Sequence record: OP870147.1
Reading direction: 5' to 3' (one strand)
Origin: Escherichia phage vB_Eco_F31
Length of the DNA: 64,000 nt
Part shown: one piece after another, positions 2,527 through 32,992 of the stretch
Numbering within the stretch: the stretch's first letter is position 1
Layout: each line of letters begins with the position of its first letter
Notes under the pieces: model-generated
What the model saw: the letters and a program-made list of their open reading frames with translations, nothing else
What the model was told of the DNA's origin: nothing
Databases searched by the model: none
Made by a program: the position numbers and the translations under genes

Positions 2527-3627
2527 TTACGCTGTGAAGATTTTATCCCACATCGCAACAACTGCATCTCGATTATACTTCTTCCATACTGCTTCAGCAC
2601 GTTTAACTCGAGCTTCGTATGTGTCAGTGAATTCTAATACAGCTTTTGTGTAAAGCGCAACTACTTCTTTCTTAGGAGTAGAGGAATCAATTTCTACACG
2701 CACAGTATCTGGGTCGTATTCGAATGTCGCATGAGGATAATCCTTAAAAACTAACTGGATTACAGGGACACCTTTAGAGATGGCTTCAATAGAACTATTC
2801 TCTACCGTACCTGTGTCAGGACACGTATTAATAAGTGCTTTAGCTGTTTTAAGACATTCCATAATTTCACTGTGTGGAGCATCAATAATAACAGGATATT
2901 TAGCTGGTGGTGCCCATTTGCTTGGACAATAACCAATACCATTTTCGCCTAGTGCTTTAATCGCTTCAAGAGCAACATCAGTACGACGCATTTTAGTGTC
3001 ATAACGTTGTGCACTAATAATCAGATCAGTCGCCGGAAGAACTTCAGGTTTCTCATTCAAACAAATAACCGGATAATCTTCGGCTTCAAACAACGGATTT
3101 GCTCGCCAATAATCATAATCGATTTTGTCAGTCAGACCTGAAGTCATATAACAATATTTGCGTTCAAATTCACGGAAGGCTTTAGTAGGAGCATAACTCT
3201 TACCGCCATTCTTATGAATTTGAATAGTTTGGTCCCAAATTTGAACAATACCACGAGATACCGGTTCAAATGGTGTTGCCATAAAATTCTTGTGAACTTT
3301 AGAGAGACCTGCGTCTTTAATTGCCTGAACGGTTAGTTTAGTCGGTTCCATAGTAACAACAAAATCATATTCATGGATGCCGGCTAGTTCAACAATCTTA
3401 CGAGCCATAGTATAACTCATACCTAGACTGAATTTAGTCAGATGACCAACAGGATGATGATTAACTTTCCAATCACCAAATGTGTCATTATCAAAACCGA
3501 TATAATCAATATCGGCACCAATAGAAACTAAATATTTCAACACATTTAAATGTACTGCTTCAAGACCACCTTGTACACGTTCAGGATTAAATGGGACTGC
3601 ACGAGATGGGATAAACATAACTTTCAT
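2527..3627 (-). CDS. GT-B fold glycosyltransferase, candidate hmC pentosyl(arabinosyl)transferase
   Basis: 366-aa ORF; N-terminal MKVMFIPS...GGLE and C-terminal G-x-VENSSIEAISKGVPVI resemble the GT1/GT4 E-x7-E donor-binding region; lies between rIIA and topoisomerase where T4 has no such gene. Confidence 0.55.
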   Translation of the reverse strand: MKVMFIPSRAVPFNPERVQGGLEAVHLNVLKYLVSIGADIDYIGFDNDTFGDWKVNHHPVGHLTKFSLGMSYTMARKIVELAGIHEYDFVVTMEPTKLTVQAIKDAGLSKVHKNFMATPFEPVSRGIVQIWDQTIQIHKNGGKSYAPTKAFREFERKYCYMTSGLTDKIDYDYWRANPLFEAEDYPVICLNEKPEVLPATDLIISAQRYDTKMRRTDVALEAIKALGENGIGYCPSKWAPPAKYPVIIDAPHSEIMECLKTAKALINTCPDTGTVENSSIEAISKGVPVIQLVFKDYPHATFEYDPDTVRVEIDSSTPKKEVVALYTKAVLEFTDTYEARVKRAEAVWKKYNRDAVVAMWDKIFTA

Positions 3628-15297: not shown

Positions 15298-15819
15298 TCA
15301 GTAACCATTATCCTGGCGTTCAAAGTTGTGTTGGTTTTTCAGGTAGTAAAGTTTAAAGATTTCTTCAGCGGAAAGACCCAGACCTTGGAACATATTCAGA
15401 ACAAAGTGGAGGATATCAATCATCTCAAATTTAATTTCAAGCTGGTCTTCAGGAGACAGTTCATCGATACGACGATTTCGATATTCAGCATGTTGTGCTT
15501 TCCATGGCTTCCATACACTGCTGGCAGCTTTTTCGCCATTGGACATACCACCAAGTGAAGTCAGCAGTTCACGGAATTCATCATCAATATAATCTTTCTG
15601 ATTACGCAGCCAATCAACAACATCGCCAGCAGTGGCCAATTCATCAGGATGTTTGTTATGTTCAGGCTTGTCATTTGCCAGACGAACCTGTAAAGATTTC
15701 TGCATATCAAGCATTACCTGCAATGGGTCTTTATCTTCGTGAATCAGAGCATTAAAATAAGCTTCTTCTGCTTTATCAACACCAGAAATAAGCTGTGAAC
15801 ATTCGTTAAAGTGTGCCAT
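15298..15819 (-). CDS. 56: dCTP pyrophosphatase (MazG-like), gp56
   Basis: 173 aa; size and synteny next to soc and the primase. Confidence 0.65.
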   Translation of the reverse strand: MAHFNECSQLISGVDKAEEAYFNALIHEDKDPLQVMLDMQKSLQVRLANDKPEHNKHPDELATAGDVVDWLRNQKDYIDDEFRELLTSLGGMSNGEKAASSVWKPWKAQHAEYRNRRIDELSPEDQLEIKFEMIDILHFVLNMFQGLGLSAEEIFKLYYLKNQHNFERQDNGY

Positions 15820-18860: not shown

Positions 18861-19109
18861 TTATTCTTTTTCGCGAATAATAATTACTTGTTGAGGCTGC
18901 TGAGCCGATTTCTTTTCGGCAACGATAGACCAAATTAAAGTTCCAATCCAACCAACCATCGTCCAGTTAAAGAGTAAAGATACAAAGAAGATTGCTGTTG
19001 TGCTTTTTGTGCCACGAATAAGTGCGATTACCCAAGGCAACATGTAAATGATGATTGAACCAATACCTGCGATTAAAACTGCTACTGAACTAGCTACGAA
19101 TAATTCCAT
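18861..19109 (-). CDS. small membrane protein (2 TM)
   Basis: 82 aa, two hydrophobic helices; 61.4 position. Confidence 0.45.
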   Translation of the reverse strand: MELFVASSVAVLIAGIGSIIIYMLPWVIALIRGTKSTTAIFFVSLLFNWTMVGWIGTLIWSIVAEKKSAQQPQQVIIIREKE

Positions 19110-19170: not shown

Positions 19171-19539
19171 TTAATTAAATTTGTTTAAACGTTCAATACA
19201 CTGGACGTAGTTATTCGCGATTTGTTTCTGGGTAGGCTCTTTACCAGTTGTTTCAACATAGCGAATGAATGCAATTTCAGTAGCCTGTAGACAATGTTCT
19301 TTAACGCGTTGTTCTTTTGACAATGCTACAGTATCAGAATCACGATAACGTTGAGCATGAGCATCAGCTTGAATCATTCGATTACCTACAGTAACCGGGT
19401 CTTCCACTTCAACTTTAGGTTGGTCGTACTGTTTAACATTCGGATTGTAAATCAGTTGGCCAACGTTATTAGGGATAAAGCCATGGGCACCACATCCGGT
19501 TAATCCAAATACCATTGCTAAAGCGATTAATTTTTTCAT
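19171..19539 (-). CDS. putative lipoprotein
   Basis: 122 aa; signal peptide with lipobox LTGC; no T4 counterpart that I recall. Confidence 0.5.
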   Translation of the reverse strand: MKKLIALAMVFGLTGCGAHGFIPNNVGQLIYNPNVKQYDQPKVEVEDPVTVGNRMIQADAHAQRYRDSDTVALSKEQRVKEHCLQATEIAFIRYVETTGKEPTQKQIANNYVQCIERLNKFN

Positions 19540-22424: not shown

Positions 22425-23589
22425 CGAAATCTTCCATTTCGTCAAGGTCGTTTTCTATATCTGCTGCAGACGGAGCATCAGAAGTTTTAACCGGAACTTT
22501 AGTTGTTGCTTTGCAATTAATAAGGTCGTTAACAGCGTCATCAACTTCTTTAATAGAAGAGATAGCACCTAGTTTATATTTAGTTTCAATTGCATCTCGG
22601 AAAGGTTTGTGTTTAAACAACGGTCCCCAGAATTCTACACAATCAGTAGCTTTAGCACGCCATGATTTTTCTTCACGAATCATTTCGCCTGTTTCTTCGT
22701 CAAGGAATTCGCGAGCATACCACCCGGCTTTAGGCTTAACTACAAAACCAATTTCAGTTGCCATTTCTAACAAGCCACTGAACGGGTCGATACCACCATC
22801 GAAATTAACCGTGATCGGGAAAGTAGATTTCTCTTTAACCGTGCGAGATTTTTCTGCTTTCAACGTGAAGTCATAACCGGTCAATTCTGTACCTTCTTTA
22901 ACCTGACGTTTAGAGATAAAGAATACAGTGTTAGCAGAGTAAAGAATACCTGTACCACCACCCATAATCTCTTTAGGATATAGTCCGCCGATTTCCATTG
23001 CTGTATGGTTGATTGCAACACACGGAATATCTTTAATAGTCAGATAAGGAGTCACAATACGGAACAGAGATTTAAGTGCCTTAGCACGAGACATATCACC
23101 TACGACTTTCTCGTTCAATGCATCTTCGGTTTCTTTCTTAGATGCAGTATTACCGATTGAATCGATAAAGATAATAACTTTATCACCCCGTTCAATCGCG
23201 TCAAGCTGATTAGTCATATCAACTTTAAGTTGTTCGACGGATTGAATCGGAGTATGAACTACACGGTCTAAATCAACACCCATTGAACGAAAATAAGATT
23301 CTGAAGCACCGAATTCCGAATCATAGAACAAACAGATTGCATCTTTATATTTCTTCATATATGCTGCAACCATGGTCAGTCCAAACAATGTTTTAAAATG
23401 TTTAGAAGGTGCAGCAAAAATAGTCAAGCCTGATTGCAATCCTGCATTCAGAGCACCACCTAGTGCGATATTCAACATCGGAATACGAGTAGGGACTTCA
23501 TCACGATTATTAAACAGCTTAGACTTAGTCAAGTCTGCAGTCATTTTAGAAGTAGAAGCTTTAATCAGACGAGATTTTAAATCAGACAT
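22417..23589 (-). CDS. uvsX: UvsX recombinase (RecA-like)
   Basis: 390 aa; RecA fold motifs; acidic C-terminus; T4 UvsX is 391 aa. Confidence 0.85.
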   Translation of the reverse strand: MSDLKSRLIKASTSKMTADLTKSKLFNNRDEVPTRIPMLNIALGGALNAGLQSGLTIFAAPSKHFKTLFGLTMVAAYMKKYKDAICLFYDSEFGASESYFRSMGVDLDRVVHTPIQSVEQLKVDMTNQLDAIERGDKVIIFIDSIGNTASKKETEDALNEKVVGDMSRAKALKSLFRIVTPYLTIKDIPCVAINHTAMEIGGLYPKEIMGGGTGILYSANTVFFISKRQVKEGTELTGYDFTLKAEKSRTVKEKSTFPITVNFDGGIDPFSGLLEMATEIGFVVKPKAGWYAREFLDEETGEMIREEKSWRAKATDCVEFWGPLFKHKPFRDAIETKYKLGAISSIKEVDDAVNDLINCKATTKVPVKTSDAPSAADIENDLDEMEDFDE

Positions 23590-23599
23590 TGTATTTTTC

Positions 23600-23650
23600 C
23601 ATAGGCATCATTATATTTTACTCATGTTTAAAAGATAAGACGATTATATA
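23600..23650 (-). promoter_or_regulatory. putative middle promoter upstream of uvsX
   Basis: ATGCTGTAT (MotA-box-like) about 11 nt upstream of TATATAAT on the minus strand. Confidence 0.3.
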
Positions 23651-23687
23651 CTAAGGGTTATACAGCATTTAAAACTTTAAATGGCTC

Positions 23688-24236
23688 TTAACGAGCCCAT
23701 TTGATGATTTCTGTAATCAAACCATTACGTTCGCTTGCATTAAATCCTATAACTTTGTTAGCACCATCATGATTAAGTAATTGATACGTTTGGATTTTGT
23801 TATGAATTGCAAACTCTTCAAAATGTGAAATGACTGTATTAAAACCGAATGAAGACAAAGTAATAAGGTCGTCTTCAAAACTTTCAGTCATTTCGTTACG
23901 TGTTAAAATAATTGTGAACACATCATGGTTTTGGCAAAGACGAACATAATCCTGCTCATAAACATCAAGAACAGAGGCCGCATCTTGTCGAATACGTCCA
24001 TAAACCCAGTTACTAATATATCCACGGTCTAACAGATAAATCTTAGTAGGGTCTAAATAATTCAACATCGTTTCGAAACAACCAACTTCATTTCGAGACT
24101 TAACATCGAAACGTCCATCAACTGTTCGTTTAGGGAAATCAATCTTTACATATCTTTCACTAATTTCCATTATGTCATTAATGAAAGTTGTTTTACCGGC
24201 ATTATCCGGGCCATCTACTAAAATAATTTTAGCCAT
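23688..24236 (-). CDS. P-loop kinase (NMP-kinase-like fold), substrate unknown
   Basis: 182 aa; N-terminal Walker A ILVDGPDNAGKTT; occupies the T4 beta-gt locus. Confidence 0.55.
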   Translation of the reverse strand: MAKIILVDGPDNAGKTTFINDIMEISERYVKIDFPKRTVDGRFDVKSRNEVGCFETMLNYLDPTKIYLLDRGYISNWVYGRIRQDAASVLDVYEQDYVRLCQNHDVFTIILTRNEMTESFEDDLITLSSFGFNTVISHFEEFAIHNKIQTYQLLNHDGANKVIGFNASERNGLITEIIKWAR

Positions 24237-24237
24237 T

Positions 24238-25137
24238 TTATTCCTCGATTACGACATCTTCGTATTTAGGTATATTATACGGCGAAGAAATTAAAGCATT
24301 AAAGTAGATGAACTCACCAAGACCTGGATGGAATACTTCTTCAGGATTTTCGAAATATTGAATCTTCGGACGTCCTTTAAGAATTTGATAGTACTCAGTT
24401 TTAGTTGGTTTAAAAATTCTAATCAACGCTTCTTCAGGATACTTATTTCTGTCAAAGCTACTATTTGGATCAGTTATATAAAGCGGTTGACCTAATTGAA
24501 TTGCACATTCAACCACTTGTTCAAAACGATAGCACGGGTCACTAATTCGAAATGGATGAAAAATACCATCTAGATGAATAGGAGCCAAATCACCTACAAG
24601 ACGCTGCATGATGGAAGGACGTATAACTTTCTGAGTTACGATAATCTTATTACCATCTGCACCTGCGTTAACCAGCACTTCTTTTTGACGTTCATTCAAC
24701 ACAGTAGTTTGAAGTGAACGATTAACTGACAACATATCGGTTTTTAAGAATTCGTCAATATAAAAACGTGGTTTATTAGGGTCTGCCGTGATATTGAAAT
24801 TGAATTCTACATCAAAAGCGCCGTCATATCCAGTGATATCTGTTATTAGAAAATCACAATCATAATAAGCAATTAATGAATCAACCACAAATTCATTTTC
24901 AGACCAGAAATATTTACGAGTGTTATACGCGTTATCTTTATACCATAATGGAACAAACTTAAATTCCGGGAAAAGACGTTCACATTCTTTAATATCAGAT
25001 GCATTACGTGGATATGTAATCACATCACCTGGATTAGCACGGTGCAAATGAAGTTGGAAGTTGCCATCCTTAAGGATAGCATACTGTCCAGTTTCATAAG
25101 ACCGCATACTCAAAATAGGTACGCGGAAAATAGCCAT
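24238..25137 (-). CDS. hypothetical protein at the beta-glucosyltransferase syntenic position
   Basis: 299 aa; no motif I can assign; 1-nt gap to the kinase and 1-nt overlap with gene 42. Confidence 0.5.
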   Translation of the reverse strand: MAIFRVPILSMRSYETGQYAILKDGNFQLHLHRANPGDVITYPRNASDIKECERLFPEFKFVPLWYKDNAYNTRKYFWSENEFVVDSLIAYYDCDFLITDITGYDGAFDVEFNFNITADPNKPRFYIDEFLKTDMLSVNRSLQTTVLNERQKEVLVNAGADGNKIIVTQKVIRPSIMQRLVGDLAPIHLDGIFHPFRISDPCYRFEQVVECAIQLGQPLYITDPNSSFDRNKYPEEALIRIFKPTKTEYYQILKGRPKIQYFENPEEVFHPGLGEFIYFNALISSPYNIPKYEDVVIEE

Positions 25138-25853
25138 TAGTCAAGGAATCCTTTAACATAATCAAAATCACGTTCAAACACATGGGCACTTACCATGGTA
25201 TGAGTATAATCACCAACTTCTACACCGCATTCGTTAGCGATATAATGAAGTAATTTTCCTTGGAGATAAAAATCCAACTGCATAACAACAGCACAGTTCT
25301 GAGAACGCATATGACAGTGGGTATAAAGCTTACCATCACGAATATAATAAGTCACTGAGTCAGTACATGGATATTCAAGCGTTTCGTCTGAATCAAGCAA
25401 AGCCTGATCAGAACTTTCTAGAATTTGGAACACAACTCTTCGGGAGTTAGGCTTCTCTTTAAGTTCTTTTAGAAGAGCTGGTAATTGGGCCACAATGCGA
25501 GGACCGTAGAAAGTGTTGAAGTTTGCAGGCAAAGCGTCTGATTTAGGTTTAGAAATAAATTTAGCGACATTAGGATATGCCTTAAACGCTTCTTCTGCAT
25601 CAGTACCACCAGAAATCATAAACTTCCAGAAGTCTTCGGCATATTCATAAGAGATGCGGTTAATACGTGGGTCGGTCATTTTGAATGTTGACGGAGTGTC
25701 AACAACTACTGTCATAGACCCAATTTCATTACAACGTCCAATACGAGAATCAGTTACGAATTCCGGGTTTTCTAAAATTTCACGATTGACTGCTTTAAAT
25801 GCGGCTTGAAAATCTGCGGCTTTGATATATTTCATTGTGTTATGTTTTCCCAT
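25137..25853 (-). CDS. 42: dCMP hydroxymethylase (thymidylate-synthase fold), gp42-like
   Basis: 238 aa; YPCTDSVTYYI (catalytic Cys) and RSQN motifs parallel T4 gp42. Confidence 0.65.
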   Translation of the reverse strand: MGKHNTMKYIKAADFQAAFKAVNREILENPEFVTDSRIGRCNEIGSMTVVVDTPSTFKMTDPRINRISYEYAEDFWKFMISGGTDAEEAFKAYPNVAKFISKPKSDALPANFNTFYGPRIVAQLPALLKELKEKPNSRRVVFQILESSDQALLDSDETLEYPCTDSVTYYIRDGKLYTHCHMRSQNCAVVMQLDFYLQGKLLHYIANECGVEVGDYTHTMVSAHVFERDFDYVKGFLD

Positions 25854-25895
25854 GTTTACCTCAATACAATTTATTATATACTCGATTCGTAAAGC

Positions 25896-26135
25896 TTATT
25901 TGAATTTCTTGGCAGTGTTGATATACCGTAAAGCTTCAGCATCGATACTTCCAAGAACACTATGAAGAAATGCATCAGCGTAGTATTCCAATTGAACAGG
26001 TTCTTTAATCACTTTAGCCGCTTTGGTTTCAAACAGGCCCATAAGGGCCTTTTTAAGAATTTGTTCGTTAGTGTTCAGTTTAATAGTCAAAATCTCTTCG
26101 TTAAGTTTATAATTAAAACTTTTTCTAGAAATCAT
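25896..26135 (-). CDS. hypothetical protein
   Basis: 79-aa ORF. Confidence 0.4.
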   Translation of the reverse strand: MISRKSFNYKLNEEILTIKLNTNEQILKKALMGLFETKAAKVIKEPVQLEYYADAFLHSVLGSIDAEALRYINTAKKFK

Positions 26136-27292
26136 TCCGGGTACCTCAAAGCGTCATCAGAGTTAGTTATATCAATAATAGATATAGAGTTTTCTGCTAA
26201 CCCGTTTTTAGATAATTGACGTTTATAATACCTTTCACAATATGTACACGTTGACCCACAGATTTCATTAGCACAATCAAAATCTGGATGTCTGAACCAC
26301 CTTTTTTCTAAAAAGCCATCTAACAAAGAGGTTTCAATATTTACTGTATGTGAAAACTCAGTTTCATTTTCAAGAGTGAAAATAGTCTCTAAAGGCTTCC
26401 ACAGTTCTAACAAATTACCTTCAAACTTTTCAGAAGCGTATGCTTCAAGAACTTTCAAAATGTAGTCTGTGCTACCTGTACGTCCTGAAACTTTGAATTG
26501 AGTGATACCGATATCATTATAAAGTTTCAAATCTTGAGGACGAACAAAACGAGTTCTCAACCAGTTAAATGGGTCTGTATCACGAGCTTTAATGCAGTGT
26601 TGCATTGGATACCCGTTTAAGGATTTAGCATCATCAGCTGTAACATCAGTACTATGGAAAATATAGCAAGAGTCACGATAGCTACAATGTGTTGTATACC
26701 CTTTACCAGCATTAGAACAGAACTCATTTACAAGAACTTCAAATATTATATTGTTCTTATTGCAAAACTCTGCTGCACGCTTCAGGAAAGAAACTGAACG
26801 GTTCTTATGAATTCCACAGCAGACCTTTTTGATATTGTATTGGTCATGTAAGTATTTGATTTGAGTTACAGCATCGACATGTAGAATTGTTGAAACTTCA
26901 ATCTCAATGTCTTTATTGACTTCACGAACAATTTCCATAACAACAGGGTTAGCGATAGTAATACGCCATACGCCTATTGACCAAAGATACTGAACATAAT
27001 CCTGAATAGCTTTCTTCTTCCACTCGACTAGTTCTCTTTTTGAACCAGGATTTATCGTGTTGAGTGTATAGTTAAAGCAAATACCTAATTCGTTACAACG
27101 TTTAACGTAATCTTCTAACATCTTTTTGTCAACGTCAGGAAGCCTAAAATCAGGTCTGGCTGCTACAAAAGCCATTTCTCTTGTAGAGCCGTATACTTCG
27201 TTTATCAAGCTATTAGGATAAGTTTTATTGAGCTCTACGATTTTATCAAGAAGAGCTAAATCAAAATTCGTTCCGATTTTAAAAGTATTCAT
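26132..27292 (-). CDS. Cys-rich putative Fe-S enzyme (possible U32-peptidase-like TIM-barrel family)
   Basis: 386 aa; central NEFCSNAGKGYTTHCSY and C-terminal CANEICGSTCTYC (CX3CX3CX2C) clusters. Confidence 0.4.
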   Translation of the reverse strand: MNTFKIGTNFDLALLDKIVELNKTYPNSLINEVYGSTREMAFVAARPDFRLPDVDKKMLEDYVKRCNELGICFNYTLNTINPGSKRELVEWKKKAIQDYVQYLWSIGVWRITIANPVVMEIVREVNKDIEIEVSTILHVDAVTQIKYLHDQYNIKKVCCGIHKNRSVSFLKRAAEFCNKNNIIFEVLVNEFCSNAGKGYTTHCSYRDSCYIFHSTDVTADDAKSLNGYPMQHCIKARDTDPFNWLRTRFVRPQDLKLYNDIGITQFKVSGRTGSTDYILKVLEAYASEKFEGNLLELWKPLETIFTLENETEFSHTVNIETSLLDGFLEKRWFRHPDFDCANEICGSTCTYCERYYKRQLSKNGLAENSISIIDITNSDDALRYPE

Positions 27293-27351
27293 TTTTTTTG
27301 CATCTCGCGTTAATTGATGCGATGGTTTTTTTGCAGGTCTTACTTAAATTA

Positions 27352-27738
27352 TTATAGGTTCGGTTTATATGATTTAAATGTTTCGAATTCGCCTTTATTC
27401 ATAAGAGCTTTGAATTCGTCAGGACGCATAGCTTTGTCGTCGATAATCCAATCATATACTGGTTTATGTGTTAGCAAATTATGGTACTTCAAGCCAATGT
27501 TTGCCAAGTTCTGAATCAGACTTGGGAGAATGTCAATTGCTATACGACCAGGACCTACTGACTTCATACCGCGCGCAGTGTAAAGCGTTATGGTATGCCC
27601 TGCATCATACAGGGCATTAATGGCAGACACCATTTCGACGTCCGGTTTGAAGTTCACGTAATCACGATTGTTATTCCACTCTGTTATACAATCATCGACA
27701 TCAAAACAAAGATTAAGCATGTTTTCTACACGATGCAT
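27352..27738 (-). CDS. HAD-superfamily phosphatase
   Basis: about 128 aa; HAD motif I FDVDDCIT near the N-terminus; start overlaps the upstream stop (TAATG). Confidence 0.55.
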   Translation of the reverse strand: MHRVENMLNLCFDVDDCITEWNNNRDYVNFKPDVEMVSAINALYDAGHTITLYTARGMKSVGPGRIAIDILPSLIQNLANIGLKYHNLLTHKPVYDWIIDDKAMRPDEFKALMNKGEFETFKSYKPNL

Positions 27739-29423
27739 TAGATTCGTTCCCATTGATGAGTGATATCGCCACCGATTGGACGATAGGAAACACCAGTTTC
27801 TTTATCAGTTAGTACCCATTTACCAGGATTTTTTGTAATCAGAGTAGCCGTTACAGGTTCTGCTACGTCATAACTAATAGAGCCGTCTTGAAGTACACGG
27901 CCCATGTTACGTAATTGCTTAGTCAGAAGTTCCATACCTTTATAATATGCGGCTACCGCTTTAAGTGGATTATTCTTGAAATAACCACCTAATGCAATCC
28001 AGATAATTGCCACTGCCAAATGATGATACTCGTTAAACGAACTCATCTTTCCATATTTGTAAACTAATGGATTGATGTTAATAGTCACATTACAAGTTGT
28101 TTCATCAATAGTAAACTGTCCCCAGGTCGGATTAGCGTTGAATTCATCATAACCTGAAACAGCGTAAAGCACTTTAGCTTCATCGTACAATTTTGGCCCG
28201 TAAATCTTAGTTTCACCAAAATATCCACGAGGGTCGATAAACTTGACTTCGCCATTATCAGTAATCATAGTATTACTGAAGTTCGGGTCACCATGAATAA
28301 CAGAGTACTGTCCCTGAGAACGGTTATGATAACGAATAAGGTGTTCTAAAGCTTGTTTCAGCATTGGCTTCAGACGTCCAATCTTAGTGTAGTTCACGTG
28401 TGTGATTTTACCAAATGAATCAATCAATGGTTGAATGCTTTCACAACGATCAATAACTTTCGTATAGAATTCTTTAGTGAAATCACGACGGACAGTTTCA
28501 GGACTTACAAAATAAGTGTCTGTGCTGAATTTCAGTGCATCTAAAATTGCATCAACAATTTGTGGACGAGCAAGACTTGATTTGGATTTAATATATTCAA
28601 ATGCCGGCTTACCTTTAATGCGTTCCATTTCAAAGTTATTTTCATTAACAGAAACTAACTGAGGAACTGAATCTGATTTCACTTTAAGATACCATGAAAT
28701 CTCATCTTTCTGAAGAGCTCGACCCTGTTCGGTTAATGCGAATTTAGTTACAGTTTCTTCACCAATTTCAACTGCATTAAAACTACGATTAAGTTCACGA
28801 ACTTCATGAGCTTTTTCAAGTTTAGGCATATCACCTAAATCAATTAGATTCATAAGCTCTGATTTATTGAATGCGCTGCCGTAAAGGAATTCTACGAAAT
28901 CACGTCCTTTGCAGTATTCATGAATTTCCTCATCAGTAGAACCCATGTAGAATTCCCAGTCTTTAAACTGATAAATTCCTACAACATTACCGCCTGTTTC
29001 ACCTACATTAGTGATATTTTCACCATCGAAATTATACCGACATTCATCACCCTTAACATAGATTGCGTTAACATTCCAAGACCATGAACCAAAATCGGGA
29101 ATAATATCACACCAGTTAACAATTACGTTATGGCCGTCTAAATCTTTGTGTAATTTAGCAAGAGCATAAGCAGAACCATACGCTTCATCAACTGTACGAA
29201 TAGTCACATTGAACCCTTCTTGCTCACAATAAGCTCGAACAGTTTCAGCAAATTTTGAATGAACTACTACAATAATTTCATCTGCGCCAAGGTCAGAATA
29301 AATTGTATACAAATTGCTCAGAATAGTGTCTTGTTTATAGTTAACAAGCACCTTAGGAATATGATGCGTTATTGGATACAAACGAGTTGCCAGTCCAGCA
29401 CCAAGAATAACAGCTTTTTTCAT
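27738..29423 (-). CDS. bifunctional sugar-1-phosphate nucleotidyltransferase (RmlA-like, N-terminal) / anomeric sugar kinase (ChoK/APH-like, C-terminal)
   Basis: 561 aa; N-terminal MKKAVILGAGLATRLYPIT (G-x-G-x-R, cf. RmlA ILAGGSGTRLYP); C-terminal VIHGDPNFSNTMI (Brenner HGDxxxxN) and FIDPRG. Confidence 0.6.
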   Translation of the reverse strand: MKKAVILGAGLATRLYPITHHIPKVLVNYKQDTILSNLYTIYSDLGADEIIVVVHSKFAETVRAYCEQEGFNVTIRTVDEAYGSAYALAKLHKDLDGHNVIVNWCDIIPDFGSWSWNVNAIYVKGDECRYNFDGENITNVGETGGNVVGIYQFKDWEFYMGSTDEEIHEYCKGRDFVEFLYGSAFNKSELMNLIDLGDMPKLEKAHEVRELNRSFNAVEIGEETVTKFALTEQGRALQKDEISWYLKVKSDSVPQLVSVNENNFEMERIKGKPAFEYIKSKSSLARPQIVDAILDALKFSTDTYFVSPETVRRDFTKEFYTKVIDRCESIQPLIDSFGKITHVNYTKIGRLKPMLKQALEHLIRYHNRSQGQYSVIHGDPNFSNTMITDNGEVKFIDPRGYFGETKIYGPKLYDEAKVLYAVSGYDEFNANPTWGQFTIDETTCNVTININPLVYKYGKMSSFNEYHHLAVAIIWIALGGYFKNNPLKAVAAYYKGMELLTKQLRNMGRVLQDGSISYDVAEPVTATLITKNPGKWVLTDKETGVSYRPIGGDITHQWERI

Positions 29424-29464
29424 GTTGAAGTCCTCATTGGTAAGTAGGAGTATTGTACACTATT

Positions 29465-29608
29465 CTAGTTAAAGCATTCATACTTTGCTTGTAGTCCAAT
29501 CATAATCCATCCAATTACAAGTGTTGGAATCATTACTGGAGCCGTTAAGCTCCAGTAGATAGTCATGACAAGCATCAATAGTAAAAGTCCTATTGTTATT
29601 GCTTTCAT
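29465..29608 (-). CDS. small hydrophobic peptide
   Basis: 47-aa ORF (MKAITIGLLLLMLVMTIYW...), ATGA-coupled to the SIS gene stop. Confidence 0.3.
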   Translation of the reverse strand: MKAITIGLLLLMLVMTIYWSLTAPVMIPTLVIGWIMIGLQAKYECFN

Positions 29609-30240
29609 TGTTCGCCTCGTAACATGGCACCTAGTGCACCGCCTGGATGGAACTTAAGGAAATCATTAGAGGTAAATCCACGTTCAGACGAAAGGTTGAT
29701 AGCGAACGTATCGATAAGCGCTAACAACAATGTAGTAGACATTGTCGGAGCTAAAGAGTTCTCGTCAACTTCTACCGCGATACCGGTACAGAACGTATAA
29801 TCAAAAAGAGCTTCGTATTCTTGTGGAATGTCAGGGTTACAATGTAACAGAATCTGTTTAACCTGAGGACGAATCATACGAAGATGTTTAGCAACACCTA
29901 TCATTTCTTCAGTCTTACCAGAACGACTGATGTGAACTAATACATCATTAGGTGCAATAAATCCTGCGTCACCATGAGAATAATGCCCAGTGTTCAAATA
30001 CATGCTAGGAATACCTAGTGAAGCAAAAGTCTCGGAAGCTTTAGTTGCGATATTAGCATTCTTACCAACACCTGTAATAATTACCCGGCTTTCATAATTA
30101 CTAAGTCCAGGGCGTCGAAGAGTTTCTAGAATAGCATTATATCGGGCAGGGTTTTGACTAATTACTTTAGCCATAGTGGCAAGAGATGAAGCTTGTTTTA
30201 CGATTGCGTCAATAGCGATAGTAATAGGAGTAGTTTTCAT
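29605..30240 (-). CDS. SIS-domain sugar-phosphate isomerase, KdsD/GutQ (arabinose-5-phosphate isomerase)-like
   Basis: 211 aa; ITGVGKNANIATKASETFASLGIPSMYLNTGHYSHGDAGF parallels the KdsD SIS motif [38 protein letters not shown]; no CBS domains. Confidence 0.65.
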   Translation of the reverse strand: MKTTPITIAIDAIVKQASSLATMAKVISQNPARYNAILETLRRPGLSNYESRVIITGVGKNANIATKASETFASLGIPSMYLNTGHYSHGDAGFIAPNDVLVHISRSGKTEEMIGVAKHLRMIRPQVKQILLHCNPDIPQEYEALFDYTFCTGIAVEVDENSLAPTMSTTLLLALIDTFAINLSSERGFTSNDFLKFHPGGALGAMLRGEQ

Positions 30241-30280
30241 ATTTCTCTCATTTAATTAGTTGGCCATCCTTGGCATTATA

Positions 30281-32992
30281 TCAAAAATCAAACATATCGA
30301 ACAGAGATGCTTTCTTCTCGTAATCGAGTTTAGCTGCTGATGTGAATCCTTCAAGTGGTTTAATAAATGTCTTCTCAAGGAGAACAGTGTAGTCCATCCA
30401 ATGAAGTACATCATCTTTGATTAAATCAGTGATTTCCGTACCAGAAGGCCATGCGATACATTTATCACCGAACGGGTTTCCATCACGTAAAGGCAGAACG
30501 TATACCTTTTCGCCTTCTACAACTTGTGGAGCATCAATATTACCTTTGATAGCTCGGTTATATGTCAGAATTCCACGAATATGGAACGGGCATTTAGGTC
30601 CTGGATATCCACCTACATCATATTTAGCAATGTTATTCGCAGAAGATACCGACGCGATGCTAATATAATTCAATTGACGGAATTCTTTTTCAAACTCTTT
30701 AAAATATTCTTGTAATGATTCTTCACCTTCTTGAAGCATACGACGAATACATTCTTTAAGAGCTTTCTGTACTGCTTTAGGGGTCGAAGATTTCTGAGTT
30801 TCTAGACCCATGATTTTGAGTTTAGGCTCAGCGTAACGAGTACCTTCCATATCCCACACGTTTAATGCATAACGTTTCTTACCAGTCCAGAATCCACCAA
30901 TACCTTTAGAACCGAGCGGAGGACCCGCGATAGCTTCTCGGTCCATGAACATTAAGTGTTGTTTATTGTTCATGTATTCACACATTTCACGGAAACCTTT
31001 ATCAATAGCTGGTTCCATACGTTCACGTGCAAACTTATCTAAGAAGTCTACCCAATGGTTGGTATCACGGAATTTAGATTCACCAACCTTATCAATAATT
31101 TTATCTGCAGATACGTAAATGGAGTCTGTATCACCATATAGAACGAAAGCTTCACCTTCTGTACCACAAACTTCATTCAGATATTCATTAACTTTACGTT
31201 CAATCCACTGTAAAGCCATTTGCCCGAATGTTGTGATTGCAGTAGCATTACGCAAATCATAATAACGGAACCAAACGTTGCCAAGTGCACCATAAAGTGA
31301 GTTGATGAGCAATTTACGGTTAATTTGTGCAGTCATACCTGCAACTTCAGTACGTTGAGCTCTAAACAACATTTCGTTAAGAGATTTAGCAGACAACTTT
31401 TTAATCTTTTCTTTAATCTCATCACTGAAGTCGAAACGATAATCAACATCTAATGGTTCGTCAACAGAAAGATTAGGATTATGCAATGCCTCTTTAATTA
31501 TTTCACCATTACGTTGAGCTGCAAGCATGTAACCTTTATGTTCTTTACGTTGATTAAAGACTTTAGTGATTTCAGTTGGAACTACACCATCACGGTCTTT
31601 ATAATACATCATGCCGTTAGGAGAACAACTGTACACATCTGAAGGACGTTCAGCGATTGCGTTAATATAATCATGCAATGGAGCTACTTTAAACGTTCCT
31701 GCTATTGTTTCTGGGCTAATATTCACTTGGCGAATAATACTTGGATACAGAGATGTAAGGTCGAAACTCATTACATATTTGTATCGATTTGGAATAGGTT
31801 CCTTAACAAAAGCGCCAGGATAAGGTTGAACCGGGTGAGAACGACCTTGTGGAATCACCTTGTTCTGCTCTTTAAGGCTATTAAAAATAATAGCATCCCA
31901 TGTTTTAATTGGGCTAAACACAGATTGAATCTGTATCTTAGCATAATAACCCATGTCCAAACTCAAGTTGATGAACTGACGCTTAGCATCAATTTGCAAT
32001 ACACGATACACGTCGATAATGTTATAAGAAATATATCGTTGGTGATTGCTTTCACGAAGCTTAGAAATAGGGCCGTCATATTTCAGTTTACCAACGTTCA
32101 ATTCAAATTCTGAAATGTAATCCAGAGAATACGACGGTTGATTGGTAAAAGAGAATTTTTTGTAAAGGTCAATGTAATCAAGAACAGAGATACCGAACAA
32201 TGTAATGATTTCACGAGAACCATACATGTTTTCGATAACTTTAACACGAGTTTTACGATGTGGTGATAAACGTTTCGCAGTAGATTCGCCAAAAATATTC
32301 TTGATTCGGTTATACACATACGGAATATCAAATGACTCAACGTTCCATCCAGTCAAAATGACAGGAGTTTTCTGTTGCCAGAAGTTGAGATATTCCATCA
32401 ATAATTCTTTTTCATTATCAAACGGCATATAAACGATTTTGTCGATAATTTCGGATGGAACTTCATCACCACCTTGTTCTTGAAGCTTAGCAGCGATTTC
32501 AATAGACCATTCTTCCACATTACCATATGGAGAATTCAATAGATCAAATACGTAGAACCTGTCGTCAATTGAGTCATAATGGGTGATAGCATCAATCGGA
32601 TGTTTTGCTTGTGACGGCTCAGGGAACCCGTCCGGAGATGTTACTTCGATGTCGAAGTTAGCCACACGAATTTTTGTATGGTCGTATTTGATTTCATAGT
32701 TATAAGTGTCAGACAAATACGCCAATTTGAAATCGTCCATGCCAAGTGCTTCAAGCCCGATATCTTCCATGCGTTTAATCCATTGGGAGGCATCACGCAT
32801 ATTAGCGAACAACTTACGAGTACACGGTTTACCGTAGATATCGAAATATTTCGTAGCCTGACTTTCTGGACAATGAGCAAACAGTGATGGTTTATATTCT
32901 ACTTCACGAGTACGTTCACGGCCATTAGAATCGATGTAACGTTCAAAAATTGAATCACCAATCTGTTCAACCGTTAAGTAAAATTCTTTCAT
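30281..32992 (-). CDS. 43: DNA polymerase (family B), gp43
   Basis: 903 aa; exonuclease and polymerase motifs (FDIE, YGDTDS); N-terminus matches the RB69 gp43 sequence as I remember it. Confidence 0.95.
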   Translation of the reverse strand: MKEFYLTVEQIGDSIFERYIDSNGRERTREVEYKPSLFAHCPESQATKYFDIYGKPCTRKLFANMRDASQWIKRMEDIGLEALGMDDFKLAYLSDTYNYEIKYDHTKIRVANFDIEVTSPDGFPEPSQAKHPIDAITHYDSIDDRFYVFDLLNSPYGNVEEWSIEIAAKLQEQGGDEVPSEIIDKIVYMPFDNEKELLMEYLNFWQQKTPVILTGWNVESFDIPYVYNRIKNIFGESTAKRLSPHRKTRVKVIENMYGSREIITLFGISVLDYIDLYKKFSFTNQPSYSLDYISEFELNVGKLKYDGPISKLRESNHQRYISYNIIDVYRVLQIDAKRQFINLSLDMGYYAKIQIQSVFSPIKTWDAIIFNSLKEQNKVIPQGRSHPVQPYPGAFVKEPIPNRYKYVMSFDLTSLYPSIIRQVNISPETIAGTFKVAPLHDYINAIAERPSDVYSCSPNGMMYYKDRDGVVPTEITKVFNQRKEHKGYMLAAQRNGEIIKEALHNPNLSVDEPLDVDYRFDFSDEIKEKIKKLSAKSLNEMLFRAQRTEVAGMTAQINRKLLINSLYGALGNVWFRYYDLRNATAITTFGQMALQWIERKVNEYLNEVCGTEGEAFVLYGDTDSIYVSADKIIDKVGESKFRDTNHWVDFLDKFARERMEPAIDKGFREMCEYMNNKQHLMFMDREAIAGPPLGSKGIGGFWTGKKRYALNVWDMEGTRYAEPKLKIMGLETQKSSTPKAVQKALKECIRRMLQEGEESLQEYFKEFEKEFRQLNYISIASVSSANNIAKYDVGGYPGPKCPFHIRGILTYNRAIKGNIDAPQVVEGEKVYVLPLRDGNPFGDKCIAWPSGTEITDLIKDDVLHWMDYTVLLEKTFIKPLEGFTSAAKLDYEKKASLFDMFDF

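What the first reader, a model, noticed from the sequence alone, without database searches (positions are those of the whole stretch)
23688..30240. Sugar-nucleotide biosynthesis island replacing the T4 glucosyltransferase/imm region: predicted hmC pentosylation (arabinosylation) pathway
Between uvsX and gene 43, where T4 has beta-gt, 42 and imm, this genome has seven genes around the dCMP hydroxymethylase. They include a KdsD/GutQ-like SIS isomerase (29605-30240), a HAD phosphatase (27352-27738), a fused RmlA-like nucleotidyltransferase/ChoK-APH-like kinase (27738-29423), a Cys-rich putative Fe-S protein (26132-27292), a P-loop kinase and a 299-aa unknown protein. Isomerase, phosphatase, anomeric kinase and nucleotidyltransferase are the steps needed to go from ribulose-5-P to D-arabinose-5-P, free arabinose, arabinose-1-P and NDP-arabinose. 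No alpha-gt or beta-gt homologue is present in the window. RB69-like phages are reported to carry arabinosyl-hmC, but this enzymatic route is inferred from motifs, not established.
Basis: partly seen in the sequence, partly recalled or inferred. Interest (0 to 1): 0.92.

Follow-up and report, generated by a model that had tools for sequence, protein, structure and literature searches.

The report
Phage cytosine-arabinosylation gene cluster, already described
This is the published RB69-type phage gene cluster that replaces DNA cytosine with arabinose-carrying 5-hydroxycytosine (not hydroxymethylcytosine), and its one unassigned enzyme, a U32 iron-sulfur protein, may be an oxygen-free back-up hydroxylase.

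Summary
Window 23688-30240 holds nine co-oriented minus-strand genes between uvsX and DNA polymerase, in a Mosigvirus (RB69-like) genome that is 98% identical to more than 150 phage records.

The sugar-nucleotide logic holds: SIS isomerase, fused nucleotidyltransferase/kinase, HAD phosphatase.

Three points are wrong:
- **Base.** It is 5-hydroxycytosine, not hmC. The ThyA homologue carries the diagnostic D169N signature (RSQN), is 26% identical to T4 gp42, and about 98% identical to PDB 9IQC.
- **Step order.** The reported order is A5P to Ara-1,5-P2 to Ara-1-P to UDP-Araf, so free arabinose is not an intermediate.

**New here.** The Cys-rich protein is a U32-family member. In related phage genera a chorismate mutase follows it directly. 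In uncultivated phages it sits beside GT1, SIS and nucleotidyltransferase/kinase homologues where no ThyA-like gene lies nearby. Acinetobacter phages lack it. I infer an O2-independent, prephenate-dependent route to 5-hydroxycytosine. This is untested.

The parts
29605..30240 (-). Single-domain SIS arabinose-5-phosphate isomerase (RB69 gp55 homologue): Ru5P to A5P
   Evidence: Pfam SIS 8e-10. NCBIfam KpsF/GutQ 8.8e-32 and KdsD 3.8e-30. PDB 3etn 1e-24 and 2xhz API 2e-18. Motifs GVGK57, SRSG105, HPGG198. No CBS domains.
29465..29608 (-). 47-aa small hydrophobic (two-TM) ORF whose ATG overlaps the SIS stop; role unknown
   Evidence: Sequence read, translation. Conserved in Bas46, LC53, Entb_45, PEi20, Bp7 and phiR1-RT. 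Annotated 'transmembrane segment(s)' in LC53.
27738..29423 (-). Fused N-terminal sugar-1-P nucleotidyltransferase and C-terminal APH/ChoK-like kinase (RB69 gp52:53, AfhE homologue): A5P to Ara-1,5-P2, and Ara-1-P plus UTP to UDP-Araf
   Evidence: Pfam NTP_transferase 8.5e-10 at residues 3-99; weak kinase-family hits at 308-409. HGDPNFSN377 and IDPR396 motifs. PDB 1jyk. Function as reported for HY126 AfhE in Lee 2026.
27352..27753 (-). HAD phosphatase (RB69 gp51, AfhF homologue): Ara-1,5-P2 to Ara-1-P
   Evidence: PDB 9iqw, E 7.8e-88 over residues 5-133. NCBIfam EcbF/BcbF capsule phosphatase 4e-13. FDVDD motif. Function per Lee 2026 citing He 2026.
26132..27292 (-). U32-family Cys-rich protein (RB69 gp50). 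No published role found. Predicted here to be an O2-independent, prephenate-dependent pyrimidine C5 hydroxylase
   Evidence: Pfam Peptidase_U32 7e-11, above cut-off. Model pLDDT 90.8; best PDB fold match is the U32 protein 5d88. Ten Cys invariant in 36 homologues. C192, C203 and C209 align with TrhP C170, C193 and C197. Chorismate mutase and GT1 neighbours in relatives.
25896..26135 (-). 79-aa ORF (RB69 gp49) overlapping the U32 stop by 4 nt. It sits where other genera carry chorismate mutase but is not one; function unknown
   Evidence: No Pfam hit. Score -0.6 against a phage-CM HMM. 44% identical to phiR1-RT g049, which coexists with a CM.
25137..25853 (-). ThyA-family 5-hydroxy-dCMP synthase (RB69 gp48 homologue), flavin/O2-dependent; not a hydroxymethylase
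   Evidence: PDB 9iqc/9ir2, E 4e-161, only a handful of substitutions in 238 aa. RSQN (D169N), EYPC (L143E, Cys146) and QLD (N177D) motifs. 26% identity to T4 gp42, which has RSND. Activity shown for RB69 gp48 in Lee 2026.
24238..25137 (-). 299-aa GT-B glycosyltransferase (RB69 gp46:47), proposed first (base-proximal) arabinosyltransferase
23688..24236 (-). Thymidylate-kinase-like P-loop kinase (RB69 gp45); substrate unknown
   Evidence: PHROG 761 'thymidylate kinase' 5e-45. Weak dTMP-kinase P-loop hit. Present in all 10 Straboviridae loci compared.
2527..3627 (-). 366-aa GT-B glycosyltransferase (RB69 ORF003c/gp3 homologue), proposed second arabinosyltransferase; outside the reported coordinates
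   Evidence: PDB 9iqz/9ir0, E 1e-248 over the full length; 9iqz is described as 'phage HY126 glycosyltransferase'. Lies between rIIA and topoisomerase. Role per Thomas 2018 and Lee 2026.
15298..15819 (-). dCTPase (T4 gp56 homologue), removes dCTP so that cytosine is fully replaced
   Evidence: 72% identity to T4 gp56 over 173 aa. RB69 gp28 is listed as dCTPase in Lee 2026.

Best explanation
The island is the Mosigvirus (RB69-type) gene cluster for arabinosylated 5-hydroxycytosine in virion DNA.

Base arm: the ThyA-like enzyme (25137-25853) hydroxylates dCMP at C5 using flavin and O2. The product is phosphorylated and incorporated in place of dCTP, which the gp56-like dCTPase (15298-15819) destroys.

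Sugar arm: SIS (29605-30240) converts ribulose-5-P to D-arabinose-5-P. The C-terminal kinase domain of the 561-aa protein makes arabinose-1,5-bisphosphate. The HAD (27352-27753) removes the 5-phosphate. The N-terminal nucleotidyltransferase domain makes UDP-arabinofuranose.

Transfer: the 299-aa GT-B enzyme (24238-25137) attaches the first arabinose to the 5-OH. The 366-aa GT at 2527-3627 adds the second.

Shown by others: the DNA chemistry, 5hodCMP synthase activity, and the AfhE/AfhF activities in HY126. Shown here: homology, near-identity to those proteins, folds and signature residues.

Inferred here: the U32 protein (26132-27292) is a second, O2-independent, prephenate-dependent C5 hydroxylase. 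It would keep the pathway running in anoxic hosts.

The roles of the TMK-like kinase, the 79-aa ORF and the 47-aa ORF are unresolved.
For: - **Identity of the locus.** 98% nucleotide identity to more than 150 Mosigvirus records, including Bas46, which is annotated 'UDP-arabinose biosynthesis'.
- **Published chemistry and gene assignments.** Lee 2026, PMC13326640; Thomas 2018; an independent Mosigvirus, phage NP.
- **ThyA-like enzyme.** About 98% identical to PDB 9IQC, with D169N, L143E, N177D and Cys146.
- **HAD and second GT.** HAD matches 9IQW at E 8e-88. The second GT matches 9IQZ at E 1e-248 over its full length.
- **Sugar enzymes.** SIS hits KpsF/GutQ/KdsD and API structures. NTase and kinase motifs are present.
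- **Conservation.** Eight cluster proteins were compared across 10 loci from 9 phage groups; five core proteins are present in all ten.
- **U32, family membership.** Pfam family membership. Ten Cys are invariant across 36 homologues, and all 13 Cys are kept in 8 phage genera.
- **U32, chorismate mutase neighbour.** A CM_2 gene above Pfam cut-off lies directly next to U32 in Kanagawa-, Winkler-, Marfa-, Teguna- and Bragavirus and in Thanatos. tblastn with one phage CM found 51 records.
- **U32, shikimate-pathway neighbour.** A DAHP-synthase::CM fusion lies next to U32 in L052.
- **U32, distribution.** U32 co-occurs with GT1, SIS and NTase/kinase in 26 uncultivated viral loci, none of which has a ThyA-like gene within 10 kb. 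It is absent from Acinetobacter and Dhakavirus clusters, which keep ThyA-like.
- **U32, cellular records.** Relatives occur in only 7 records, all from anaerobe-type taxa.
- **U32, family precedent.** RlhA makes ho5C, TrhP makes ho5U, and UbiU/V act on ubiquinone; all are Fe-S-linked, O2-independent and prephenate-dependent.
Against: - **Main pathway.** Nothing found here contradicts it. The first arabosyl transfer has not been reconstituted. Lee 2026 saw no activity of single DLP3 GTs on 5hoC DNA, and could not tell whether the first sugar is added to the nucleotide or to DNA.
- **U32, no direct evidence.** No biochemical evidence exists for the U32 part.
- **U32, cysteine motif.** The second cysteine of the canonical CX6CX15CX3-4C motif is a glycine in the phage subfamily.
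- **U32, no CM in this phage.** The window's own phage has no chorismate mutase.
- **U32, exceptions.** E. coli Dhakaviruses such as Bp7 manage without U32.
- **U32, rival label.** Lee 2026 lists gp50 as 'sugar or heterocycle reductase'.
- **U32, unread papers.** I could not read He 2026 or Mahler 2025, which may assign it differently.
- **U32, limited search radius.** Absence of ThyA-like genes was tested only within 6-10 kb of U32.
Confidence: 0.85

Rival explanations
1. One reading: T4-style hmC is made by a dCMP hydroxymethylase and then pentosylated, with NDP-arabinose made through free arabinose (A5P to Ara to Ara-1-P).
For: Thomas 2018 originally reported ara-hmC for RB69. Many records annotate the ThyA homologue as dCMP hydroxymethylase. 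Table 1 of Lee 2026 still words the HAD and kinase steps through free arabinose.
Against: NMR/MS show an ether link to 5-hydroxycytosine. RB69 gp48 makes 5hodC with 18O from O2. The window enzyme has the D169N signature and only 26% identity to T4 gp42. According to Lee 2026, He 2026 found A5P to Ara-1,5-P2 to Ara-1-P.
Confidence: 0.04
2. The U32 protein is not a hydroxylase of the base. It acts on the sugar or heterocycle as a reductase (Lee 2026's label), is a GT1 accessory factor, or is a peptidase or host-takeover protein unrelated to the modification.
For: Labelled 'sugar or heterocycle reductase' in Lee 2026 Table 1. Its canonical four-Cys motif is incomplete. Acinetobacter and Dhakavirus phages arabinosylate or keep the cluster without it. 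It is tightly linked to GT1 in uncultivated phages, which would also fit an accessory role.
Against: The final nucleoside has no reduced sugar or ring (Lee 2026). Characterised U32 members are linked to O2-independent aromatic C-hydroxylation, including ho5C. A chorismate mutase or DAHPS::CM next to it points to prephenate use. An accessory role would not explain why no ThyA-like gene lies near U32 in 0/26 and 0/7 loci that do carry GT1 and sugar genes.
Confidence: 0.3
3. The island makes a sugar nucleotide for cell-envelope or capsule manipulation (Kdo or capsule pathway hijack), not for DNA.
For: SIS resembles KdsD/KpsF. The HAD resembles capsule phosphatases EcbF/BcbF, and the matching PDB entry is named 'capsule biosynthesis protein'.
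Against: RB69, NP, Bas46 and LC53 DNA carries arabose on cytosine. The cluster is interleaved and translationally coupled with the base hydroxylase and sits among replication genes.
Confidence: 0.02

Closest known systems
RB69 gp45-gp55 / phage HY126 Afh cluster (arabinosyl-5-hydroxycytosine pathway; Lee et al. NAR 2026, and He et al. Nat Chem Biol 2026 and Mahler et al. Cell Host Microbe 2025 as cited there)
   Same: Same genes in the same order, at about 98% nucleotide identity to Mosigvirus records. The ThyA-like protein, the HAD and the second GT are each nearly identical in sequence to a solved structure: 9IQC, 9IQW and 9IQZ.
   Different: Nothing substantive; this is another isolate. In this window the NTase/kinase and GT1 are intact single ORFs, whereas the RB69 GenBank record splits them through sequencing errors.
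T4 hmC glucosylation system (gp42 dCMP hydroxymethylase, gp56 dCTPase, alpha-gt/beta-gt)
   Different: The handle is 5-hydroxy rather than 5-hydroxymethyl, made with flavin/O2 rather than folate (D169N). The sugar is arabinofuranose from a phage-made UDP-Araf instead of host UDP-glucose. There is no beta-gt homologue.
E. coli U32-family hydroxylation proteins RlhA (ho5C2501), TrhP (ho5U34) and UbiU/UbiV
   Same: Peptidase_U32 domain, TIM-barrel-like fold, conserved Cys aligned with three of the four cluster ligands, an extra C-terminal Cys group as in RlhA, and a genomic link to prephenate supply in related phages.
   Different: Only weak sequence similarity (UbiU model E 9e-4). The second canonical Cys is missing. 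The presumed substrate is a deoxynucleotide or DNA rather than RNA or quinone. The activity is untested.
Dual O2-dependent/O2-independent enzyme pairs (TrhO/TrhP; UbiI,H,F/UbiU,V; from general knowledge, T4 NrdAB/NrdDG)
   Same: One flavin/O2 enzyme and one Fe-S, prephenate-type enzyme would serve the same hydroxylation. Across phages either one or both occur.
   Different: The pairing in this phage is inferred from gene distribution only.

Membership tests
[quoted passage not shown] | ThyA homology with the catalytic Cys146 equivalent | tested here: met
   Pfam Thymidylat_synt 1.2e-15; 'EYPC' motif.
[quoted passage not shown] | Asn at the E. coli ThyA Asp169 position (the D169N diagnostic of Lee 2026), plus N177D and L143E | tested here: met
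   RSQN, QLD and LEYPC in the window protein. All 10 phage homologues have RS[QE]N; T4 gp42 has RSND.
[quoted passage not shown] | Flavin cofactor and O2-derived hydroxyl | not testable with these tools
   Reported for RB69 gp48 and HY126. The window protein is about 98% identical to PDB 9IQC.
T4-type dCMP hydroxymethylase (gp42) | Asp retained at the position 169 equivalent, with close similarity to gp42 | tested here: not met
   Asn instead of Asp; 26% identity.
T4 alpha-/beta-glucosyltransferase | Sequence homology to T4 beta-gt | tested here: not met
KdsD/GutQ/KpsF arabinose-5-phosphate isomerase | SIS domain with KpsF/GutQ-type sequence | tested here: met
   TIGR00393 8.8e-32 and KdsD 3.8e-30; PDB 2xhz and 3etn; GVGK, SRSG and HPGG motifs.
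KdsD/GutQ/KpsF arabinose-5-phosphate isomerase | C-terminal CBS pair; full-length score above the NCBIfam cut-off | tested here: not met
   211 aa with no CBS domains; 110.7 bits against a cut-off of 203.7. It resembles the single-domain protein of 3etn.
AfhE-type bifunctional A5P 1-kinase / UDP-arabinose pyrophosphorylase | One polypeptide with an N-terminal NTP_transferase and a C-terminal APH/ChoK-like kinase carrying HxDxxxxN | tested here: met
AfhE-type bifunctional A5P 1-kinase / UDP-arabinose pyrophosphorylase | Kinase acts on A5P at C1; NTase uses UTP | not testable with these tools
   Reported for HY126 AfhE by He 2026, as cited in Lee 2026.
AfhF HAD phosphatase | HAD fold with a DxD nucleophile motif and homology to the HY126 enzyme | tested here: met
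   PDB 9iqw 7.8e-88; FDVDD motif.
GT-B glycosyltransferase (for the 299-aa protein) | Two-Rossmann-domain GT-B fold | tested here: met
GT-B glycosyltransferase (for the 299-aa protein) | Transfers arabinose from UDP-Araf to 5hoC | not testable with these tools
   Proposed but not reconstituted.
U32 Fe-S, prephenate-dependent hydroxylases (RlhA/TrhP/UbiU/UbiV) | Peptidase_U32 domain | tested here: met
   42.2 bits against a cut-off of 22.4. The top PDB fold match is the U32 protein 5d88.
U32 Fe-S, prephenate-dependent hydroxylases (RlhA/TrhP/UbiU/UbiV) | Four-Cys cluster motif CX6CX15CX3-4C | tested here: inconclusive
   C192, C203 and C209 align with Cys 1, 3 and 4. Cys 2 is Gly. Seven other Cys are invariant and could supply the fourth ligand.
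U32 Fe-S, prephenate-dependent hydroxylases (RlhA/TrhP/UbiU/UbiV) | Dependence on prephenate | tested here: inconclusive
   A chorismate mutase or DAHPS::CM lies next to U32 in relatives, but none is in this window. This is context only.
U32 Fe-S, prephenate-dependent hydroxylases (RlhA/TrhP/UbiU/UbiV) | O2-independent hydroxylation activity | not testable with these tools
   Needs anaerobic genetics or biochemistry.

The most novel reading that the evidence does not exclude
The unassigned U32 protein (26132-27292) is an O2-independent, prephenate-dependent deoxycytidylate (or DNA-cytosine) C5 hydroxylase. In other genera it is paired with a phage chorismate mutase or a DAHP-synthase::CM fusion. 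RB69-like phages would then carry two non-homologous routes to 5-hydroxycytosine: flavin/O2 and Fe-S/prephenate. Many uncultivated phages of anaerobes would use the U32 route alone to make the handle for GT1-type glycosylation. I found no statement of this in the papers I could read. He 2026 and Mahler 2025 could not be read and may pre-empt it.
Probability: 0.45. Interest if true: 0.8.

Novelty: already known. Interest (0 to 1): 0.4.

Why it matters
**The cluster itself is textbook-in-the-making.** It explains why RB69-type phages resist many restriction enzymes and CRISPR nucleases, and why they are seen by type IV systems. Re-finding it has little value beyond correcting 'hmC' to '5-hydroxycytosine'.

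**The U32 lead matters more.**
- The known hydroxylase needs O2, yet these phages replicate in gut bacteria.
- A prephenate-driven hydroxylase acting on a deoxynucleotide would be the first U32 enzyme with a soluble, easily assayed substrate. [quoted passage not shown]
- It would explain why phages carry chorismate mutase.
- It would point to a reservoir of glycosylated 5-hydroxypyrimidine DNA in uncultivated phages of anaerobes.

Tried and rejected
- **79-aa ORF as a diverged chorismate mutase: rejected.** It has no Pfam hit and scores -0.6 against a phage-CM HMM. It is instead homologous to phiR1-RT g049, which sits beside a true CM.
- **A CM elsewhere in the 64-kb window:** none found by tblastn.
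- **Promoter and terminator scan of 23400-30400:** fewer promoter-like sites than the shuffles gave (20 against a mean of 26). Terminator-like sites were 6 against 3.4, which is not informative.
- **Composition profile:** no compositional break marks the island.
- **U32 against PDB by sequence:** no hit at E<=1.
- **299-aa protein and TMK-like kinase against PDB by sequence:** nothing useful.
- **afdb50 fold search:** not available.
- **He 2026 and Mahler 2025:** not held in the library. Literature searches linking U32, prephenate or chorismate mutase to phage cytosine hydroxylation found nothing.
- **Transposon-mutagenesis preprint on Bas46 and LC53:** gives no gene-level essentiality for this cluster.
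- **Strict aerobe/anaerobe correlation for U32:** only partly holds. Acinetobacter phages lack it, but so do E. coli Dhakaviruses.

Full report
**What is in the sequence.** The window is a Mosigvirus (RB69-like) genome segment. The polymerase, uvsX and helicase ORFs flank the region. Window 23600-30300 is 98% identical over its full length to more than 150 phage records, including Bas46/ChristianSchoenbein, PhAPEC2, JK45 and Shf125875.

The genes are tightly packed:
- The SIS stop overlaps the small ORF's start.
- The NTase/kinase overlaps the HAD by 16 nt.
- U32 overlaps the 79-aa ORF by 4 nt.
- The ThyA-like gene overlaps GT1 by 1 nt.

T4 has uvsX-segA-beta-gt-42-imm-imm.1-43 in the same slot. 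T4 beta-gt has no match in the window. The imm and imm.1 homologues are not lost; they sit at 18861-19109 and 19171-19539.

**What it is, according to the literature.**
- Thomas et al. 2018 (PMC6024577) found arabinose on RB69 DNA, called it ara-hmC, and singled out this module (ORF055c, ORF53_52c) as candidate UDP-arabinose genes.
- Lee et al. 2026 (PMC13326640) showed by MS and NMR that the arabinose is ether-linked to 5-hydroxycytosine. RB69 gp48, the ThyA homologue, makes 5-hydroxy-dCMP with oxygen from 18O2 and binds a flavin. They also showed that D169N (E. coli ThyA numbering) marks this enzyme branch.
- Lee et al. assign gp55 as A5P isomerase, gp52:53 as kinase plus pyrophosphorylase, gp51 as phosphatase, gp46:47 and gp3 as arabinosyltransferases, and gp45 as 'nucleotide kinase'. 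They label gp50 only as 'sugar or heterocycle reductase'.
- Citing He et al. 2026 on phage HY126, they give the order A5P to Ara-1,5-P2 (AfhE kinase) to Ara-1-P (AfhF phosphatase) to UDP-Araf (AfhE transferase).
- An independent Mosigvirus, phage NP, has the same nucleosides.

**What I verified.**
- **ThyA homologue.** It matches PDB 9IQC/9IR2 at E 4e-161 with only a handful of substitutions. It carries EYPC (L143E, Cys146), RSQN (D169N) and QLD (N177D). T4 gp42 has RSND and is 26% identical. It is therefore a 5hodCMP synthase, not a hydroxymethylase.
- **HAD.** It matches PDB 9IQW at E 8e-88.
- **SIS.** It hits KpsF/GutQ and KdsD models and the API structures 3etn and 2xhz. It lacks the CBS pair.
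- **561-aa protein.** It has an NTP_transferase N-terminus and an APH/ChoK-like C-terminus with HGDPNFSN and IDPR.
- **Second GT.** It lies at 2527-3627 and matches 9IQZ, 'phage HY126 glycosyltransferase', at E 1e-248 over its full length.
- **dCTPase.** The gp56-type enzyme is at 15298-15819.

The base, the step order and 'no transferase' are wrong. The pathway is already in print.

**The unassigned piece: the U32 protein.** The 'Cys-rich Fe-S protein' is a Peptidase_U32 family member, above Pfam's cut-off. Its model (pLDDT 90.8) best matches the U32 structure 5d88.

Characterised U32 proteins are linked to O2-independent, Fe-S- and prephenate-dependent hydroxylation of aromatic carbons:
- RlhA is required for 5-hydroxycytidine in 23S rRNA.
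- TrhP is required for 5-hydroxyuridine in tRNA. It is backed by the O2-dependent TrhO.
- UbiU/V hydroxylate ubiquinone precursors, with prephenate as the oxygen donor.

The known phage hydroxylase needs O2, which led me to ask whether U32 is the anoxic alternative.

*Cysteines.* All 13 Cys are conserved in eight phage genera, and ten are invariant across 36 homologues down to 47% identity. C192, C203 and C209 align with TrhP C170, C193 and C197. The second canonical Cys is Gly. A C-terminal C340-x4-C345-x3-C349-x2-C352 group recalls RlhA's essential C-terminal cysteines.

*Prephenate link.* A Pfam CM_2 chorismate mutase, scoring 33-45 bits against a cut-off of 27, lies directly after U32 in four phages. 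In three of them the genes overlap by 4 nt:
- Entb_45 (Kanagawavirus)
- LC53 (Winklervirus)
- PhiKpNIH-6 (Marfavirus)
- Thanatos-2, where the U32-CM pair sits at a different place in the cluster

A CM is also present in phiR1-RT and Proteus PM2. tblastn with one phage CM finds 51 phage records, always beside the U32 or ThyA-like genes. The window's own 79-aa ORF in that slot is not a CM. Mosigviruses would therefore have to use host prephenate.

*Distribution.* tblastn finds U32 in 221 phage records and the NTase/kinase in 373.
- **U32 records.** All named host genera are Enterobacterales or Shewanella.
- **NTase/kinase records.** These include 57 Acinetobacter records.
- **Clusters without U32.** The Acinetobacter DLP1 and E. 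coli Dhakavirus Bp7 clusters lack U32 but keep the ThyA-like gene.

Across genera, U32 (79-87% identity) and the ThyA-like enzyme (70-84%) are the best-conserved proteins of the cluster. The NTase/kinase falls to 42-72%.

*U32 without ThyA-like.* Homologues at 45-58% identity are common in uncultivated phage contigs. In eight contexts from the protein look-ups, U32 sits among deoxynucleotide and replication genes: dCMP deaminase, thymidylate-kinase-like, dUTPase, UDG and DNA polymerase. In six contigs the gene immediately upstream is a GT1 homologue, at HMM E 1e-26 to 4e-36.

In 41 IMG/VR loci, 15 Straboviridae-type loci have both hydroxylase candidates. In the other 26 loci, the counts within 10 kb of U32 are:

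| Gene near U32 | Loci out of 26 |
|---|---|
| ThyA-like | 0 |
| GT1 | 13 |
| NTase/kinase | 14 |
| SIS | 9 |
| CM-like | 10 |

One contig, L052, carries this gene run: GT1, SIS, NTase/kinase, TMK-like kinase, a DAHP-synthase::chorismate-mutase fusion, HAD, U32.

In 100,044 species genomes, relatives occur in only seven records: Erysipelotrichales, Bacillota, Lachnospiraceae and two Romboutsia MAGs, a groundwater BRC1 MAG and Phocaeicola faecalis. None has a ThyA-like gene nearby, and three have a CM next to U32.

This either/or/both pattern is what two non-homologous enzymes for the same step would give.

**Limits.**
- The U32 function is inferred from family chemistry and gene context only.
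- Absence of ThyA-like genes was tested only within 6-10 kb.
- The habitats of the metagenomic contigs were not available.
- Dhakaviruses infect E. coli without U32.
- Two key papers could not be read.
- The TMK-like kinase is also a core gene in both cluster versions. RB69 already has a gp1-type dNMP kinase that accepts 5hodCMP. Lee et al. could not detect the first transfer on 5hoC DNA. Together these leave open that the first sugar is added at the nucleotide level. I did not test this.

**Verdict.** The cluster is already known. The residual interest lies in the U32 protein. My estimate that it is an O2-independent 5-hydroxylase is about 0.45.

Noticed in passing
window 29465-29608 (-): A 47-aa ORF (MKAITIGLLLLMLVMTIYWSLTAPVMIPTLVIGWIMIGLQAKYECFN) whose ATG overlaps the SIS stop codon. 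It has two hydrophobic segments and is conserved in six other phage loci. Its role is unknown.
   Followed up: partly
window 18861-19109 and 19171-19539 (-): Homologues of T4 imm (64% identity) and imm.1 (32%) lie about 5 kb away from the island. The island displaced them rather than replaced them.
   Followed up: partly
window 25896-26135 (-); L008 7194-7391: The 79-aa ORF occupies the chorismate-mutase slot but is unrelated to CM. Its homologue in Yersinia phage phiR1-RT (g049) coexists with a CM (g048).
   Followed up: partly
window 26132-27292, residues 340-352: The U32 C-terminus carries C-x4-C-x3-C-x-Y-C. Its last three Cys match the radical-SAM-type CX3CXfC spacing. All four are invariant in 36 homologues. 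I could not measure Cys-Cys distances in the model.
   Followed up: no
L052 7302-8357: An uncultivated 74-kb viral contig encodes a DAHP synthase fused to chorismate mutase. It lies between a TMK-like kinase and HAD/U32, inside a GT1-SIS-NTase/kinase cluster. L020 also has a DAHP_synth_1 gene next to U32.
   Followed up: partly
L021 5971-9000 and 12073-13179: Another viral contig has GT1-like, U32, a weak TAGT-family glycosyltransferase, dUTPase/DCD and a UDP-galactopyranose mutase. This suggests a galactofuranosyl 5-hydroxypyrimidine made without a ThyA-like enzyme.
   Followed up: no
L014 7447-9086; L017 7504-9083; L015 8001-10888: In very large phage contigs (one of 466 kb) U32 directly follows a dCMP deaminase. 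In others it precedes NT5C and a deoxynucleoside kinase, with radical SAM/SPASM genes nearby. The substrate there could be a uracil nucleotide.
   Followed up: no
window 23688-24236; L052 6734-7312; L019 5552-6082: A thymidylate-kinase-like gene accompanies the cluster in every version, although RB69 has a separate gp1-type dNMP kinase that accepts 5hodCMP. It might phosphorylate an already glycosylated nucleotide.
   Followed up: no
L005, L006, L007, L009: The SIS isomerase gene is missing from the fetched cluster regions of Thanatos-2, Bp7, PhiKpNIH-6 and Proteus PM2. These phages presumably use host KdsD/GutQ for arabinose-5-P.
   Followed up: no
L002 4352-4990; L008 5352-5990; L010 5352-5990; L009 7196-7879: Homing-endonuclease genes (seg-like) are inserted between HAD and U32 in LC53, phiR1-RT and PEi20. 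In Proteus PM2 one lies between U32 and the CM. The window has none.
   Followed up: no
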